From Octopus vulgaris (Eukaryota), in the NCBI GenBank assembly GCA_951406725.2, contig OX597832.1:37076001-37140000 (forward strand): a DNA stretch of 64,000 bases. Reading direction: 5' to 3'. The translations under genes were made by a program, and so were the position numbers. Shown here one piece after another: positions 5,883-58,760 of the stretch. Within the stretch, counting starts at the first letter, position 1. Every line of letters starts with the position of its first letter. The notes below the pieces were generated by a model, which was given only the letters and a program-made list of their open reading frames with translations, had not been told where the DNA came from and made no database searches.

Positions 5883-6739
5883 GCATGCATACATGCATAT
5901 TCTTTATTCTTTTTGTGTTATCGGTCATTGGACCGCTGCCATACTGGCACATTGCCTTCAAGAGTTTAGTCGATAATACAGTGACAGCTGTAGTGGTAGT
6001 AACTATAACACAGAGAACTATGACACAAACAGCCACAGTAACGCTTAAATTAACCACCCCCTCGCATCACACTCTACCGTGGAAACTACAAAAATTTCCT
6101 TCCGTATATTGTAGTTGTATATGCATACATATACGTCCATGGCGATCATGATGATGGCTGTCCAGTCACGTCTTAGGAAGTCCATCACTGACCATTCGGA
6201 ACATGGTGCATTCAGTCAAATTTATACTTTACACTTGTGGCTCCACTGAGAACTAATGATCCCACCTTTTCATAAACATACATGCCTGGTGGTAGTGTAG
6301 ACCAAGCTTCCTCCCATTCACTACACTGTCAGTGTGTTTTCAAACAGCTCGCTTAAATTCTGCATGAAAATGCATGCTTTTTTGAAAATATCCACTCATT
6401 CCTTCACTTATTTCTGCCACTGGTAGGAATGGCAAGCATTGCTTATCCAATTGACCACTCGTATTTCATATGCCTTCAACGAGGATTTCACACAATCCTA
6501 TACATGCATATATAATTGTGTGTATATGTATGTGTGTGTGTGTGTATTATATATATTTATATAAGGGGGTACCCAAAAGTAATCAGAAACGTTCTCTGTG
6601 GGACAAGCCTGTTGTAGTTTGGGCTTCCACCATTAGAAGCCACTTGATGCAACCCCCAGGCATCAGTCTGCTGACTGGCATTGTCTAGTGGAGTCATACT
6701 GGCACATGATGTATCTTTGTTCGTCGATTTTTGTGATGC

Positions 6740-7150
6740 CTGAAATGAAGGAACAGCGTTTTCCCTGTTAACTTTCCTCTGATATTGCTGCACCTCATAT
6801 GTGTCCAAAGCTTACACTGGGTGCATCTTATGGAGTTTCTACCTATGCCTTTTCTACAGATTGAGCAGGGCCATCTACCTGAAGGGATTCGTGATTTGTC
6901 TACCCTCCTACTTACTAAGACTTTGGTTTCTGCTCGGTTAACTCTAAGGCCTTTCAATTCTAGATCTTGCTTCCATACCTGGAACTTCTTCTCTAGTTCT
7001 GGTAGTAATTCAGCTATAAGAACAAGGTCATCAGCATAGAGGAGCTCCCAGGTGCAGCCTGTCTTGAATTCCTCTGTTATTGCCTGGAGGACTATGATGA
7101 AAAAAAGGGGGGGGAGTGGCTGAGGATCAATCCTTGGTGAACCCCTACCT
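6740..7150 (-). mobile_element. RTE-clade LINE reverse transcriptase fragment
   Basis: WELLYADDLVLIAE (YADD), KGLRVN, then Cys-rich CSICRKGIGRNSIRCTQCKLWTHMRCS. Confidence 0.9.
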
Positions 7151-8062
7151 GTACCCTGAATTCTTTGCTGTAGTGTTGCAGACAAGTATATATTTATGTA
7201 TAAATGTGTATATATTTATATTTATATATGTGTATATGTTTTATATATGTATGTTTGTTCTAACAACATCAATGTTTAAGTGGGGATAAATATTACCTCT
7301 TCGGATTAACACTGCCCCTGTCACTAATATATATTCTTTAACAAGCAAACTGGCCAATGTAATACCAGCACCTGTTCTGGTACTGTTTTTCTATTCAGAG
7401 AGAAAAGTTGCTGTTATTTCTAGCAGCTGAGTGTCCTTCATTGATGAGACCATGGAAGGTAGAAATCATGTGATCTGGTGGTCTCAGCACTGGAAATGGC
7501 AAGATTTACCTTTCCATTAGTGATATAAACAAGAGTGCATTTTGCACCAAAAGCCAATATGAGAGTCTCTCTCTTGTGGTTTCTACTGCAGTATAGTTTG
7601 TTCTAACAGAACATCCACATTTAAGTGGGCAGAAGTGTTACATTCTTTGCTGCCAAATATCCCCCCCCCCCCATTAGTGTCATGCATCATCAATCACATG
7701 TTGATTAGTTGCCGTCAAATTTTGAGTGTTGGTTTTGTTATATTTTTTTCCACTCTTTAGCCAGTGTTGATTTTTTGATGTTTATGTTTGAAAGTCAATT
7801 TTGGCATTGTATTACGATATGAGTGGGGTTTCCATAATTAATCGTTACATTTTTTCTGCAATTTTATAAAGTATTTTCCTCTAGTAGTTCCCTGTCTAGT
7901 TTCACTTTGTGGTGTAATGTTGCACAATAGCTCCATGTTGCAAATACATGGTGGTGTGTGTTCTGTTCTACTGGTTAATCCAGCTTAACAGCTAGTGTTC
8001 CAAAGTTTGCAAACCTCATAGTCAAAATTTGTGTGTGTGTGTGTGTGTATGTATATATATAC

Positions 8063-9052: not shown

Positions 9053-9189
9053 ACAATAATAATAATAATCTTTCCTTTATTCACCACTAAGGGTTTATAT
9101 GAAAGACTGGGAATGGTACAGGACAAACAAAGCAGAAAAAGAGTGGGATTTAATCATGTAAAAATGTAATAAGAAAAATTATCTATTTT

Positions 9190-9394
9190 TATTATTATTG
9201 TTCAGGTCACTACTTGGAATCGAACTCAGAATCTTGGGGTTAGTAGCCCACGCTCTTAACCACTATGTCATATGCCCTTGGGTATATGGTGTAGTGGTTA
9301 AGAGCGCGGGCTACTAACCTCAAGATTCCGAGTTCGATTCCAAGCAGTGACCTGAACAATAACAATAACAATAATAATAACAATGAAAATGATG

Positions 9395-9428
<34 letters not shown>

Positions 9429-9646
9429 TAATAATAATAATAATGATAATAATAATGATAATAATAACAGCGAAAAATAGCTTAGGAATGAGAACCCAGG
9501 TTCGAAATTTCCCCAAGACACCTGAAGAAGGCTGGAGGGTATATCAGCCGAAACGTTGTGTTAACAACAAACAAGATGAGGACAAATATCCGTCGAATGT
9601 AAATAATATGAATAACATACATAATTCCTCATCTCTTAAATATAGA
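9190..9646 (+). mobile_element. tRNA-headed, hammerhead-containing non-autonomous retroelement with inverted 5' duplication
   Basis: A box tggtgtagtgg, B box gagttcgattcc, (AAT)n tract, hammerhead at 9517-9562; 9195-9277 is the reverse complement of 9279-9361. Confidence 0.75.
9517..9562 (+). ncRNA. Minimal type I hammerhead ribozyme
   Basis: gacac-CTGAAGA-a-ggctg(gagggtatat)cagcc-GAAAC-GTT-gtgtt; palindromic ACGT stem III. Confidence 0.8.
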
Positions 9647-15078: not shown

Positions 15079-15828
15079 ATAAATATTTAAAGCAACTTCA
15101 CATATAGGTCCCAAGGGCAATTTTTTTAAAAACACATTTTGGGAAGAAAAATAAGTGTGTCTTATATGCTTTCAGATACAATAAATGTATCCTTCAACCA
15201 CTTATAAAGATGGGTATTCTAGTGTTTGATCAACTGATTCATCTATTCATAGTATTTCAGTACAAAGTGACTGAATATTTCACAGGCCCCTGCACCCTTG
15301 ACACAGTATGTGGTACAGCTGAACCTTTGAATTACAGTTAGGGACCATTGAACAGACTTCAACAGTTTCTGACCTCCACCCCATCACCATCCATTTCACA
15401 CCTGAGGCTGTTACCTATTAACATTTGGTTGGGCTTCACAAAAATAAAACAGCAAGTTGAAGAACTCTGATTAAGTTTATCTATGTTATTAATTAGCCTA
15501 AATAATCTCTACTCACTCTATATTATTTCTAATTGATTGAGCTAAATATGCATCAAAGAATGGTTTACGTAAAACTGAAACATTTCTTTTGCTGTTAGCT
15601 TCAAAGACAAGTTCCAGACTTATCTACAGAGTTGAGTCATTTTTCCAAAATTCAATTATATTATCATAAGGGACTAAAGCCATCTGAATATGGCTAGGGA
15701 CAGGGCAGGGTGGTGGGGGTGTTACTGTTGCATTTAGCCCCAGGCGAACATCGACGTCACCAGAAAGGCTCGACACCGTCACGGTGCCCTAAACCTGCAA
15801 AGGGAGGTAATTCCCCGATGAAGCGGAA

Positions 15829-15880
15829 ACCACACACGGACCATGGTTTCAAGGTGTATTGCCTATCATCGGCGTGTGGT
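15829..15880 (-). ncRNA. Type I hammerhead ribozyme, copy 1
   Basis: Reverse complement accacacg-CCGATGA-t-agg(caataca)cct-t-GAAA-ccatg-GTC-cgtgtgtggt; palindromic stem III ACCATGGT; GUC site between 15839 and 15838. Confidence 0.85.
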
Positions 15881-16188
15881 AGGCCTCCGCTTCCTCGACG
15901 AATTCTCACTCTGCAGGATTTTCTTATATAGATTTTCAAGCAAAATACATTTGCTGATTTCGAAAATCTGTTCGAAAGCAATAATAATTCTCTAAAAGGG
16001 ATATAGACAGTAACTGCTCGATAACATAAGGGACTAAAGCCATCTGAATATGGCTAGGGACAGGGCAGGGTGGTGGGGGTGTTACTGTTGCATTTAGCCC
16101 CAGGCGAACATCGACGTCACCAGAAAGGCTCGACACCGTCACGGTGCCCTAAACCTGCAAAGGGAGGTAATTCCCCGATGAAGCGGAA

Positions 16189-16240
16189 ACCACACACGGA
16201 CCATGGTTTCAAGGTGTATTGCCTATCATCGGCGTGTGGT
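16189..16240 (-). ncRNA. Type I hammerhead ribozyme, copy 2
   Basis: Identical to copy 1, exactly 360 nt away. Confidence 0.85.
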
Positions 16241-16779
16241 AGGCCTCCGCTTCCTCGACGAATTCTCACTCTGCAGGATTTTCTTATATATAGATTTTCA
16301 AGCAAAATACATTTGCTGATTTCGAAAATCTGTTCGAAAGCAATAATAATTCTCTAAAGGGATATAGACAGTAACTGCTCGATAACATAAGGGACTAAAG
16401 CCATCTGAATATGGCTAGGGACAGGGCAGGGTGTTCCACCACCCTGCCCTGTCCCTAGCCATATTCAGATGGCTTTAGTCCCTTATGTTATCGAGCAGTT
16501 ACTGTCTATATCCCTTTTAGAGAATTATTATTGCGAATTATATTATCATATTATTGGAATTATCTTCCTTGACATTTTATTGGAATATAACATGTATGTA
16601 TATGATATATATATATATAAAATACAAAACCGCATTGAAAATATAAATTCAAAACTGGGAGAAAAAGAAAAGAGGAACAAGGAAAGAAAAGAAAACAAAG
16701 AAAAAAAAAGAAAAAAAGAAAATAGAAAAAACGTCAATTGAACACCAGGTACCGCAATTAGTCACAAACCACAAATTTC

Positions 16780-31579: not shown

Positions 31580-32115
31580 GGAAAGTTCGTGAGGAACCCA
31601 TTGACCCAATTTGCTGACTTTTCCGATAGCACACAGGTCTCAATGAATGGTTGAATGACCAAATCCAAGCTTCTCTGCTAGTTCCTCAACAGTTACGATG
31701 AGATTTTGTTCCACCAGGGTTTTCAGGATGTCCTTGTCGAGTTCTACAGATCTTTCAGGATGAGGCTCGTCTTCTAGGCTGTAGTTTATGGCTCGGAATT
31801 TCTGGAACCACCATTGACACTGCCTTACGCTTATTGTCCAATCCCCATATACTGCATTAATATTTCTTGTACTTTCCGTTGCGTTGTTGTCTTTATTGAA
31901 CTCATAAAGCAAAATATGCCAAATATGCTCCTTTGTTACTTACAATATAGCTTTGAAAAAAATAGCTGTTAAAATCGAAATGCACTCTTCAAAACTTGCA
32001 CTATGAATAAGGACAAGATAAAATTACTACCTGCTTTTATAGCAAGTTAATATAAGTAGTTTATCCCATTCCCCTGTGACATTTAGTTCAAGCTGTTGAA
32101 AAAACCGCATTATTA
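31580..32115 (-). mobile_element. mariner transposase 5' half (HTH region), decayed
   Basis: LLYEFNKDNNATESTRNINAVYG...WFQKFR...LEDEPH...GKVSKLGQWVPHELS (WVPHEL motif). Confidence 0.9.
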
Positions 32116-36958: not shown

Positions 36959-36994
36959 CTTTCTGATGAAGAGCATAGGCTCGAAAAGTAAAAG
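36959..36994 (+). ncRNA. Degenerate minimal hammerhead
   Basis: cttt-CTGATGA-a-gagc(atag)gctc-GAAAaGTA-aaag; a more decayed copy at ~37065-37100. Confidence 0.55.
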
Positions 36995-37639: not shown

Positions 37640-38340
37640 CCAATATGCGCACCACCTGAGACATGGCACACGTTAAATCAGTAGTCCAGCTCCTCCCAAA
37701 CATGCTGCAGTATGTCTTGGGTAAAAGTCTCCAGAGCAGTAATGATTCTCTGCTCAAGTTCCTCTAGGTTTTCAGGAAGAGTGGGGACATAGACCTGGCC
37801 CTTCACATAGCCCCAGAGAAAAAGACTTGCAAGGTCTCAGGTCAGGTGAAGATGGCGGTCATTTCAACAGCACATTGTCTTCATCATCAGCACACTCTAT
37901 CCCTCTCCCTCGCAGATTGTCATTGAGATAGGCCTGCTCAGTAAGCTTCTGGTGAGGTTTAACCCTGTCCTGTTGAAAAATGAAGTCCTCGTGTTCATTT
38001 GCAATGAGCTCATCCATTAATGAGTTCTGAAGCATTTGCAGATAAACATCATCGGACACATTTACCTTAAAGCAAAATGGACCATGAAGATGCTTCTTGG
38101 AGATAGTGGAAAACACATTCACTTTTGGTGAGTCCCTCTCATGCTCAATTGTGGCATGAGGATTTTCTTTCACCCCAAATGCGAACATTATGCTGATTGA
38201 CTTTGCCATTTGTATGAAATGTGGCCTCATCACTGAAAACAAGACGTTCCCTGAACTGGGTTTCTTCAAGTTTCTCTTGCATATCAACAAAAGATTGTTT
38301 GCACTTTTGCTTGTCATCTGCCCTTATGACCTGAACGAGC
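37640..38340 (-). mobile_element. rosa/DD41D-like mariner transposase remnant
   Basis: ENPHATIEHERDSPKVNV, FQQD, *PPSSPDL.PC, WGYVKGQVY. Confidence 0.85.
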
Positions 38341-45202: not shown

Positions 45203-46290
45203 CAGGAGTTGGACAAAACAATGGACACACCTTAAAATTTCAAACAAATTTATTTTAATATGGGCGTAGGATTGCTTTTGGCAGTAATTGCAGTTTGAAT
45301 TGTACGAGATATGAACTCGTACAAAGTTTGAATTGTTTCCAAAGGAATTTTTGTCCATTCTTCAGCTAAAACAGTCTCCAGTTCTTGTAGTGATGATGGT
45401 GGAGGATATTGACTCCTTAGATGTTTTTCTAAAATGCACCATAAATGTTCAATAATATTGAGATCTGGGGACTGCAGCAGCCAGATAAGATGTTCATCTT
45501 CACCAGAATGTTCCTCGTGCCATTCAGTAACAACTTTAGCTTTGTGAATTGGTGCATTATCCTCCTGAAAGATTGCATTTTCCCCTGGAAACAGTTCCAC
45601 AACCTCAGGATGAATTTGATAAGATAAAATGCTTAAATAGTCTTGACTATTAATTCTGCTATGAAGGGAAACAGTTGGGCCAGTGAATTTCCAAGATATA
45701 GCCCCCAAGATCAACACAGATCCTCCTCCATGTTTAACAGTGGGAAGAAGGCATTTTGGGTCAAATGCTTCTTTTGGCTGTCTCCACACGTATACTTGGC
45801 TGGTGGTGGGAAATAAGGTAAAGGATGACTTGTCTGAGAAAATAACACTCTTCCACTGCTCTAGGGACCAATTCTGTAGGTTTTTACTCCACTCAAAATG
45901 CTTTTCAACATTTGCTTTTGAAAGTAGTGGTTTTCTGATTGCAGCCCTCCCGTGAAATCCAGCTTTGTGCAGCTCCCAGCAAACAGTTTTCATGGAAACT
46001 GGGTTTGCAAGGTGGTCATTAAGCTCTACAGTAATTTTGGGAGCAGTAATTTTTTGATCCTTTCTAACAATTTACGTAAGAACCCTATCAGAAAGTTTTG
46101 GTTTTCTTCAAGAGTTTTGTTTTGATGAGGAGGTTTTTCCCTCTTTCTCAAAGGCTGTCATTACTTTCAAGAAAGTACTTCTTGATACACCAAACATTTT
46201 TGCTATTTTCATTATGTTAGCGCCTGCCTTACGAGCACCAACAATTTGACCTCTTAGAAAGTCCAATAGATCTGTCATTGTAATGAATTT
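45203..46290 (-). mobile_element. Tc1-family transposon, decayed, DD36E spacing
   Basis: VIFSDKSSF, TVKHGGGSV, FQEDNAPIH, SPDLNIIEHLW; HTH ORF at 46108-46320; TA plus caggagttggac terminus at 45203. Confidence 0.93.
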
Positions 46291-53790: not shown

Positions 53791-54395
53791 ACTGCGGCTT
53801 TTTATAGCTATGGTGCGACCTCACCTGGAATTTGCATCAACGGTCTGGAACTCCTATCTTGCCCAAGATATTAATCGTCTGGAAGCTGTTCAGCGATGTG
53901 CAACCAAGAGAATACCCTCTATCAGGCATTTGCCATATTCTGAATGCCTTACTTCTCTGGGCATGGATACATTGAAACTCCGAAGTCTGGCAGCTGACTT
54001 GACAGACACCCATAAAATTATTAACCATCTTGCTAACAATAACTCTGAGCACCTTTTCAAACTCCACCTGTCTAACACCCGTGGACATGTTTACACAGTC
54101 AGAAAGCAGCACAGCTCCCATGACATTTGGAAACATTTTTTCACGCTAAGAGTTGCTGAAGCATGGAACAAACTGCCGGCATCAGTCGTTAGTTGTCGGA
54201 GCACTGCATCCTTCAAAACTTCCATGCTTCCTGAGATTTGCCAACACTACACCTACTACGTAGGCATGTATCTGACTCATACACTCTTCACTTCCCAGAC
54301 ATTTGTACATTACTGCATATTCTTTATACGCACTTTTGACAAGTTGTGGTGTACCTGAGCACTGTATACAATAATTTCATTATTATTATTATTAT
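53791..54395 (+). mobile_element. 5'-truncated CR1-clade LINE inserted in a unit intron
   Basis: VRPHLEFASTVWNSY...LEAVQRCATK...NTRGH...RVAEAWNKLP; (ATT)n tail. Confidence 0.92.
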
Positions 54396-57749: not shown

Positions 57750-58760
57750 ATAATGAGATAAAAAACTTATGCGTGGACGTAATATAGAAAGCAAGTTCTA
57801 TCTGTAGTTTTGGGGGGACCAAAAACGTAACAAAAATTTGGTTACATGTGGGCATGATCCGAAAAGTTCTGTGGATGTGTACGTGTGTGCGGGTATGTAT
57901 GTATATAGATGTATGCGCGTGTGCGGACATAAGAGTACATATATATATAGACGTTTTTACTCAGTATTTTTACAATTTTTCCTGTTTTTTTTAGACGTAT
58001 GTATAATCCTTTTTGTGCGTGCGTGTGTGCGTATGTGTATATAGACGTGTGCATATATGGGCGAGTATGTGTGTGTGCGTGCATAAAGGTATGTCTATAT
58101 ATGAACGTGGTTTACTCTTTGTATACTTCCTTATGCCTTTTTTCTGTATTGTTACCCTTAACCCTGTTTTTTCTTGTGCTTGTGCGTATGTAGACGTATG
58201 TATGAACTTTTACGGCGCACGCGTGTGTGTGTGTTTGTATGTATATGCATATACATTTGGCGAAAGATGCGAGTGAAGATGTGTACGTTTTTGTAGTGAT
58301 GTATGCTTACGCACGTGGGTGTTCGAGCGCACATGTGTATGTATGAACAGACGTGCTTACGCGTTTACTATGAACTTTTTACCTTATCTTAATTAGGGGG
58401 TCATTCAAATTAGCGCTTTTGTATAAATAGCGATCTATAACACAGTAATATCCCTTTGTATAACGGTCTTTTTTCATAGCGTTTTTCCGATGGCCAGATA
58501 ACCGAAGAGATGGTGGTGTGGATTTCTACCTCGGCATCTAAAACTCAGAGTTTTATCCTGGTTACCGAATAATTGTCACATAAGAGATAATGGTGTCATT
58601 GAAACCCAAAGGTGTCAAGTAATGCTGAATAATTTTTGCTCTCCTCTCACACCGTCTCCGATGAAGGGATATTATTAATATCCTAGAAAGAGCTGTAAGA
58701 TCTTCTATCTATAAATAGTGTAATATTTATACAACCTTGGTGCTTTTATCTTATTACACA
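57750..58760 (+). mobile_element. Penelope-like 3' region with hammerhead
   Basis: Hammerhead at 58654-58701 within a TG-rich UTR-like block that truncates an array unit. Confidence 0.5.
58654..58701 (+). ncRNA. Minimal hammerhead, CCGAUGA core
   Basis: tct-CCGATGA-a-gggatatt(att)aatatcct-a-GAAA-gagct-GTA-aga. Confidence 0.65.

What the first reader, a model, noticed from the sequence alone, without database searches (positions are those of the whole stretch)
15654..16550. Young hammerhead retrozyme: 360-nt tandem unit with 15-bp TSD and Penelope-style inverted end
Seen: two nearly identical 360-bp units plus a partial third, a 99-bp inverted copy at the right end, and an exact 15-bp flanking duplication. 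Each unit has a minus-strand type I hammerhead with a GUC site and a palindromic stem III (ACCAUGGU). Stem I extends into a long rod (aagcgga/tccgctt, aattc/gaatt, cctgca/tgcagg). Known: metazoan non-LTR retrozymes are tandem type I hammerhead repeats that yield circular RNAs, and Penelope-like elements insert as partial tandems with inversions. Inference: a non-coding family mobilised by a Penelope RT, releasing a 360-nt monomer (15839-16198) that may circularise. The CCGAUGA core is a U4C variant.
Basis: partly seen in the sequence, partly recalled or inferred. Interest (0 to 1): 0.8.

Follow-up and report, generated by a model that had tools for sequence, protein, structure and literature searches.

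The report
Animal retrozyme with Penelope-type insertion ends
An 867-base non-coding insert made of 2.1 head-to-tail copies of a 360-base unit plus an inverted end carries, in each unit, a variant hammerhead motif that likely cuts its own RNA, and it is most likely a new family of the known animal 'retrozyme' parasites, probably copied in by a Penelope-like retrotransposon.

Summary
Each unit has a minus-strand type I hammerhead motif, predicted to cut at 15839/15838 and 16199/16198. It has a CCGAUGA core, a U-U pair at the base of stem II and a palindromic stem III. Rfam misses it. The unit is a multi-copy family: 20 public runs of 8 studies hold it, and one DNA run gave 1500 variant contigs. 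Full-unit contigs of three runs carry the same C at core position 4, so this is not one copy's decay. Both insertion ends face RNA-3'-outward and lie 47-51 nt apart on the unit. This matches the tandem + inverted + 'tail' layout published for Penelope-like elements, though the tail is longer than their 30-40 nt. Self-cleavage, circular RNA and the mobilising enzyme were not shown. Verdict: a new member of the known animal non-LTR retrozymes; moderate interest.

The parts
15654..15668 (+). Left copy of the target-site duplication (AT-rich; last 4 nt also match the unit, so 11-15 bp)
15669..16028 (-). Unit 1, 360 nt; identical to full-unit contigs in runs X1 and X5
15830..15879 (-). Type I hammerhead motif, copy 1: stem I, CCGAUGA core (15872-15866), 3-bp stem II with U-U base, GAAA, palindromic stem III, GUC with predicted cut 15839/15838
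   Evidence: activity untested
15794..15917 (-). Predicted rod that extends stem I
   Evidence: pair probabilities 0.98-1.0; structure
15839..16198 (-). Predicted self-excised monomer, 360 nt, no long ORF in any frame of the circle
16029..16389 (-). Unit 2, 361 nt (two small indels against unit 1)
16190..16239 (-). Type I hammerhead motif, copy 2, predicted cut 16199/16198
16390..16433 (-). Partial third unit (44 nt), ending inside the G-rich tract
16436..16534 (+). Inverted arm, reverse complement of 15978-16076; its outer end lies 47-51 nt beyond the left outer end on the unit ('tail'-like)
16536..16550 (+). Right copy of the target-site duplication
16057..16079 (+). G3-N1-7 x4 (G-quadruplex-type) motif, also at 15697-15719; both arms stop at unit positions inside it (16072 and 16076)
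   Evidence: 4 such motifs in the window, 2 of them here; role inferred
15803..15888 (+). Plus-strand hammerhead-like arrangement (CCGAUGA, 4-nt linker, GAAA, 7-bp stem III, GUA) with no stem II; probably a by-product of the rod
   Evidence: (20 kcal/mol above the free ensemble)

Best explanation
This is one insertion of a multi-copy, non-coding 360-nt hammerhead repeat family (an animal non-LTR retrozyme) whose minus-strand RNA likely cuts itself weakly and was likely copied into this site by a Penelope-like reverse transcriptase-endonuclease. Shown: the tandem, the inverted arm, the duplication, the hammerhead motifs and the family. Inferred steps: (1) read-through transcription of tandem copies gives minus-strand RNA. 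(2) The attenuated hammerhead cuts after GUC, more easily as a double hammerhead in which the two palindromic stems III pair, and releases a 360-nt monomer. (3) A host ligase may close the monomer into a circle whose fold mostly keeps the core inactive. (4) The enzyme nicks both strands of AT-rich DNA 11-15 bp apart, and both 3' ends prime cDNA at two internal start sites 47-51 nt apart on the RNA. (5) One cDNA runs 765 nt (2.1 units, round a circle or along a concatemer) and the other 99 nt; both stop in the G-rich tract and are joined head to head.
For: Anatomy. Hammerhead hit in 7 of 1000 shuffles. The minus-strand circle folds better than shuffles (z -4.9) and better than the plus strand (z -2.4; 60 shuffles each). 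An active site costs 4.8 kcal/mol as a double hammerhead against 8.5 as a monomer. Family: 20 of 24 listed runs, 8 studies, hold at least 76% of the sampled words. In DNA run X6, 1500 records were laid on the stretch (705 at >=99%, 472 at 95-99%, 244 at 90-95%, 79 below 90%), while only one contig is listed across the unique flank. C at core position 4 stands in full-unit contigs of X1 and X5 (0 differences) and in the second piece of the X18 contig, and no other letter reached 3% there in any of the 4 runs. One X1 contig begins at 15977 after a TA run, the same terminus as the inverted arm, so that end recurs at another locus (one contig). The inverted arm holds 4 nt that the adjacent forward arm lacks and has unit 1's A run, which argues against a simple fold-back. 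Literature: Penelope-like insertions are partial tandems with an inverted truncated copy and a 30-40-bp tail (PMC8557442). A Penelope-like protein nicks and extends both strands at AT-rich DNA and starts at two internal RNA sites that define the tail (PMC11167929). CCGA cores keep some activity in viroid RNAs. An axolotl retrozyme with U-U at the stem II base cleaves weakly as a monomer and better as a dimer.
Against: No cleavage, strand or circle was measured. The predicted ground state of the monomer is not the active fold (stem II 0.08, stem III 0.00). The dimeric stem III was the minimum-energy fold for one fragment but had probability 0.04 in a longer one, and the whole locus folds as two separate inactive units. 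U4C considerably lowers activity in vitro (PMC3088659). Eight of nine predicted frog retrozymes did not cleave. The offset of 47-51 nt is longer than the published 30-40-nt tail. The left junction has 4-nt microhomology, whereas the Penelope-like protein studied starts without homology. No autonomous partner could be sought because no genome is held. The head-to-tail joint also occurs in DNA runs.
Confidence: 0.62

Rival explanations
1. Same family and same Penelope-type mobilisation, but the ribozyme is effectively dead. Uncut tandem transcripts serve as template, and the repeat is a satellite-like passenger that makes no circle.
For: Two departures in one core (U4C, U-U at 10.1/11.1); active fold 8.4 kcal/mol above the ensemble; no Rfam hit; hammerhead cleavage was not needed for insertion by the anole Penelope-like protein in vitro; 8 of 9 frog elements did not cleave.
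Against: All other core positions, the GUC site, the palindromic stem III and the rod are intact. Each departure has an active precedent. Nearest-neighbour models usually undervalue hammerhead junctions (own knowledge).
Confidence: 0.2
2. The unit was moved by a LINE-type reverse transcriptase (twin priming) rather than by a Penelope-like one.
For: An 11-15-bp duplication, priming microhomology and a 5' inversion are LINE hallmarks (own knowledge). Decayed LINE-like reading frames lie in the window (judged by eye).
Against: No poly(A) or simple-repeat 3' tail. Both outer ends are internal positions 47-51 nt apart, and one recurs in another contig. The inverted arm duplicates sequence that is already in the forward part.
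Confidence: 0.08
3. The unit is an ambisense, viroid-like circle: a second, stem-II-less hammerhead on the plus strand (core at 15815, predicted cut 15881/15882) overlaps the first and allows RNA-to-RNA rolling-circle replication.
For: The same 7-nt core and GAAAC recur on the opposite strand, with a 7-bp stem III, a GUA site and a 2+5-bp bulged stem I. CCGA cores occur in ambisense viroid-like RNAs.
Against: There is no stem II (4-nt linker). The fold lies 20 kcal/mol above the plus-strand ensemble. The motif is the complement of the rod's 3' arm. A loose core motif arises in 29 of 1000 shuffles. The family is genomic and abundant.
Confidence: 0.04
4. The structure is an assembly artefact, or merely the truncated pseudo-LTR end of an autonomous Penelope-like element.
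For: Tandem and inverted structures trouble assemblers (PMC8557442). The two indels of unit 2 lie in a homopolymer and a TA run. Retrozymes are related to pseudo-LTRs.
Against: An exact flanking duplication brackets the whole structure. The left junction stands in X6 contig 17 with 0 differences (X6 may be the source sample). The unit-to-unit joint stands in all 4 runs. No ORF lies in the insert.
Confidence: 0.06

Closest known systems
Metazoan non-LTR retrozymes (Cervera and de la Pena 2020, PMC7229834; results and discussion read, supplement unreadable)
   Same: 150-450-nt tandem units, one type I hammerhead per unit, GC below 50%, non-coding, duplication longer than 4 bp, highly paired predicted circle; size like the mussel (350-390 nt) and axolotl (330/350 nt) families.
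   Different: CCGAUGA core as the family's common state; predicted monomer fold mostly inactive, whereas most retrozymes there are predicted to fold active (some mussel circles excepted); inverted end and tail are not mentioned in that main text (0 hits for 'inverted'); expression and cleavage are not shown here.
Axolotl HHR_Amex2 retrozyme (PMC7229834)
   Same: U-U at the base of stem II, 2-bp stem III with a tetraloop, about 350-nt unit.
   Different: This one also has U4C and a long rod continuing stem I; no sequence comparison was made.
Penelope-like element insertions (PMC8557442 passages; PMC11167929 main text; PMC4209133 results and discussion)
   Same: Partial tandem, inverted truncated copy, both ends 3'-outward, tail-like offset, AT-rich target.
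   Different: No RT or GIY-YIG ORF; offset 47-51 nt rather than 30-40; the hammerhead has a stem III and a short stem II rather than the minimal form with a long stem II; 4-nt microhomology at one end.
Retrozymes as non-autonomous Penelope-like derivatives (Li, Clavereau, Pollet, bioRxiv 10.64898/2026.07.22.740005; parts 1-3 of 5 read)
   Same: Same proposed partnership.
   Different: Their evidence is co-occurrence and pseudo-LTR homology, mainly in vertebrates; here the evidence is the junction anatomy of one insertion.
CCGA-core hammerheads of viroids and viroid-like RNAs (passages in PMC3088659, PMC9608096, bioRxiv 10.64898/2026.09.16.752053)
   Same: U4C core.
   Different: Those are infectious RNAs (type III in the zeta and betaviroid-like cases) with a partner ribozyme on the other strand; this is a genomic type I repeat.

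Membership tests
Metazoan non-LTR retrozyme | Head-to-tail units of about 150-450 nt | tested here: met
   360/361 nt, 2.1 copies
Metazoan non-LTR retrozyme | A type I hammerhead motif in every full unit | tested here: met
   Motif in 2 of 2 full units, with a variant core; not detected by Rfam models
Metazoan non-LTR retrozyme | Non-coding, no LTR layout, GC below 50% | tested here: met
   Stops in all 6 frames of the circle, longest ATG frame 50 codons; GC 0.47; no tRNA gene. PBS and PPT were not searched specifically.
Metazoan non-LTR retrozyme | Target-site duplication longer than 4 bp | tested here: met
   11-15 bp
Metazoan non-LTR retrozyme | Multi-copy in the genome | tested here: met
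   1500 variant records laid in DNA run X6; another flank in one X1 contig. No copy number can be given; no other copy in the window.
Metazoan non-LTR retrozyme | Self-cleavage as monomer or dimer | not testable with these tools
   Folding only
Metazoan non-LTR retrozyme | Expressed as unit-length circular RNA | tested here: inconclusive
   390-letter contigs that close on themselves in X1 and X5, which are only guessed to be RNA; the same joint stands in DNA runs X6 and X18
Penelope-like element (autonomous) | ORF with telomerase-like RT and GIY-YIG endonuclease | tested here: not met
   No such ORF in the insert
Penelope-mobilised element | Partial tandem plus inverted truncated copy at the 5' end | tested here: met
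   against PMC8557442
Penelope-mobilised element | 30-40-nt tail between two internal RT start sites | tested here: inconclusive
   Offset 47-51 nt; one terminus recurs in one other contig
Penelope-mobilised element | Homology to the pseudo-LTR of an autonomous element in the same genome | not testable with these tools
   No genome is held
Ambisense viroid-like RNA | Complete ribozyme on both strands | tested here: not met
   The plus-strand motif lacks stem II and lies 20 kcal/mol above the ensemble

The most novel reading that the evidence does not exclude
The 360-nt circle carries two overlapping CCGA-core hammerheads of opposite polarity, the plus-strand one a stem-II-less 'minizyme' that works only as a dimer. 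It would then be a viroid-like RNA replicon of an animal that also endogenises by Penelope-driven rolling-circle reverse transcription.
Probability: 0.04. Interest if true: 0.85.

Novelty: new member of a known kind. Interest (0 to 1): 0.4.

Why it matters
The papers read here treat Penelope-like mobilisation of animal retrozymes as a hypothesis that rests on co-occurrence and sequence kinship. This insertion carries the junction marks expected of that enzyme (both ends 3'-outward, tail-like offset, AT-rich duplication, more-than-unit copy). With many near-identical copies, the mechanism can be tested by a simple junction census. It also appears to be an animal family in which the CCGA core is the norm, and standard CUGA descriptors and Rfam models miss it, so retrozyme counts may be underestimates. 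It is not a new kind of system.

Tried and rejected
Rfam: no hammerhead match; the miRNA-like hits reflect only the perfect terminal hairpin. Whole genome: not held. Metagenome scan with a loose hammerhead pattern: 119 loci from 4 of 64 parts of the collection, 0 of 119 similar to the unit by blastn. Exact unit motifs: 0 hits in viral contigs and 0 in prokaryotic genomes. Expression: no RNA holder listed; X1 and X5 are guesses. Their lack of cover on the unique flank 15354-15639 is not used as evidence. Empty-site allele: none listed, but 100 loose ends were not shown. Summed contig depth in X6 is 46 on the flank and 2.2e5-1.2e6 on the unit; its bins fit a step at about 15837, next to the predicted cut, and rise near 15978. 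The tool states that such depth cannot rank parts, so these are leads only. X18 (organism D) has a single contig at depth 3.4, and 2 of its differences are at unlisted places; it gives no usable covariation and may not reflect a native family. Blocking of the core by the downstream complementary motifs costs 11-21 kcal/mol and was rejected as the main fold. Endless ORF on the circle (360 is a multiple of 3): rejected. Bacterial promoter scan: not applicable. Earlier-scan look-ups by place, by sequence and by the first word set returned nothing. Literature: 'retrozyme'+'cephalopod' listed 1 paper and 'octopus'+'hammerhead'+'ribozyme' listed 7, none on such a family by title or abstract start. 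'hammerhead'+'U4C' gave 1 paper. Retrozyme+inverted+tail+Penelope+junction gave 1 plant review, seen in listing only. The supplement of PMC7229834 was unreadable and may hold related invertebrate examples; the dimer-cleavage paper PMC5785218 is not held. PMC8490949, PMC9901934 and PMC7761336 were seen as passages and changed nothing.

Full report
Observation. The region was read directly and checked for repeats. Between an exact 15-bp duplication (15654-15668, 16536-16550) lie 867 nt. The forward 765 nt are two units of 360 and 361 nt and 44 nt of a third. Then come 2 nt, a 99-nt perfect inverted copy of unit positions 15978-16076, and 1 nt. The 15-mer occurs only at these two places in the window. 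Its last 4 nt also match the unit, so the duplication is 11-15 bp. No other copy of the unit is in the window. The window is AT-rich, crowded with microsatellites and decayed transposon frames; it looks like an animal genome, and from memory like an octopod, which I did not test. No whole genome is held.

The ribozyme motif. Each full unit has on the minus strand stem I, CCGAUGA, a 3-bp stem II closed at its base by U-U, GAAA, the palindrome ACCAUGGU and C17 at 15839 or 16199. My descriptor found 7 hits in the window: these two, four minimal motifs of Penelope type and one doubtful one. It hit 7 of 1000 shuffled units. Rfam finds no hammerhead at either threshold. The circular monomer folds at -116.7 kcal/mol (z -4.9) on the minus strand and -105.0 (z -2.4) on the plus strand. 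The rod outside stem I is near-certain in the model, but stems II and III are mostly unformed (0.08, 0.00), and the active fold costs 8.4 kcal/mol. In a two-ribozyme transcript one active site costs 4.8 kcal/mol as a double hammerhead and 8.5 as a monomer. The dimeric stem III was the minimum-energy fold in one fragment and had probability 0.04 in a longer one, so this preference depends on the fragment. Both departures from consensus have precedents. U4C lowers activity in vitro yet allows viroid infectivity (PMC3088659, passage), is reported not to abolish cleavage (PMC9608096, passage), and recurs in viroid-like RNAs (bioRxiv 10.64898/2026.09.16.752053, passages). An axolotl retrozyme with U-U at the stem II base cleaves 22% in an hour as a monomer and better as a dimer (PMC7229834).

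The family. Twenty of 24 listed runs, from 8 studies and 5 organism labels, hold 76-100% of the unit's sampled words; none is on record as RNA. I laid 4 of the 24 on the left flank plus unit 1. DNA run X6 gave 1500 records over a range of identities, with one contig across the unique flank and left junction (15250-15685, 0 differences; X6 may be the source sample). X1 and X5, guessed to be RNA, each gave a 390-letter contig identical to unit 1 with the joint 16024 to 15665. The same joint stands in X6 and X18, so it shows a head-to-tail arrangement and not a circle. No other letter reached 3% between 15712 and 15903 in any run. Contigs drop rare variants, and some X6 and X18 pieces carry differences at unlisted places, but C at position 4 is the common state. 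Loose ends at 15747, 15770 and 15962 show related sequences that share the half of the unit away from the ribozyme. One X1 contig starts at 15977 after a TA run, the same terminus as the inverted arm here. The unit has no look-alike among 119 metagenome loci, and no exact motif match in viral contigs or prokaryotic genomes.

How it likely got here. With minus-strand RNA as template, both outer ends are cDNA start points, at unit positions 16025-16029 and 15978, 47-51 nt apart and flanking one predicted stem-loop. Both inner ends fall within 4 nt of each other in a G-quadruplex-type tract. Penelope-like insertions are described as partial tandems with an inverted truncated copy and a 30-40-bp tail (PMC8557442, passages). 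A purified Penelope-like protein nicks and extends both strands at AT-rich DNA, preferring ATT, and starts at two internal RNA sites whose distance is the tail (PMC11167929, main text). The inverted arm is unlikely to be a fold-back of the neighbouring DNA, because it has 4 nt that the neighbour lacks and unit 1's A run. That second point fails if unit 2's indel is an assembly error. Whether the template was a circle or a linear concatemer cannot be told; a start far from the cleavage site and 2.1 passes fit both. Against a perfect match: the offset is longer than published tails, and the left end has 4-nt microhomology.

Rivals. A dead ribozyme remains plausible (0.2), since 8 of 9 predicted frog retrozymes did not cleave and cleavage was not needed for insertion in vitro. 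LINE twin priming (0.08) fits the duplication but not the tail-less, offset termini. A plus-strand motif repeats the same core at 15815 with a stem III and a GUA site. It has no stem II, costs 20 kcal/mol and is the complement of the rod arm, so an ambisense replicon is unlikely (0.04). An artefact or bare pseudo-LTR end is unlikely (0.06), but the right junction was not checked against reads.

Relation to what is known. It meets the five sequence-level features of animal non-LTR retrozymes (PMC7229834, parts 2-4 of 6 read); cleavage could not be tested and circular RNA is inconclusive. It is not an autonomous Penelope-like element. The Penelope link is already proposed and argued from phylogeny (bioRxiv 10.64898/2026.07.22.740005, parts 1-3 of 5); minimal hammerheads of such elements are described in PMC4209133 (parts 1-2 of 4). 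My searches found no description of this family or of a CCGA-core animal retrozyme, but one key supplement could not be read and most subscription papers are not held. Earlier notes of this scan list similar elements in other genomes (unchecked).

Verdict. A real, low-divergence insertion of a new retrozyme family with an unusual but precedented core and a clear Penelope-type footprint. New member of a known kind; interest 0.4.

Noticed in passing
window 9522 (+), 10067 (-), 36963 (+), 58658 (+): Four minimal hammerhead motifs of Penelope type (extra A after the core, longer stem II, minimal stem III). The one at 58658 also has a CCGATGA core; the one at 36963 sits in a 105-nt unit repeated 2.1 times; an 88% self-inverted stretch (9178-9378) lies just upstream of the one at 9522.
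   Followed up: partly
window about 34800-62000: A repeat of several hundred bases with an 85-92-nt subunit recurs every 2-4 kb at about 70-85% identity; an old segmental array of unknown nature.
   Followed up: no
window 6694-7215 (-), 31640-31939 (-), 37859-38323 (-), 45250-46071 (-), 53792-54358 (-): Reading frames that look by eye like decayed LINE reverse transcriptases and Tc1/mariner transposases; not scanned against families.
   Followed up: no
window 15747, 15770, 15962 (loose ends in runs X1, X5, X6): Related sequences share the non-ribozyme half of the unit but diverge around it; they may be sister families or the end of the autonomous partner.
   Followed up: no
loci L032, L038, L054, L060, L078, L083, L084, L109, L115, L117 (around the pattern match): A recurring metagenomic motif that resembles a hammerhead core with a paired stem II and 3-5 pairs of stem I. 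It may be a conserved coding sequence or a real bacterial type I hammerhead; unrelated to the unit.
   Followed up: no
window 15299-15337: A short stretch of the left flank matches another repeat in runs X1, X5 and X6.
   Followed up: no
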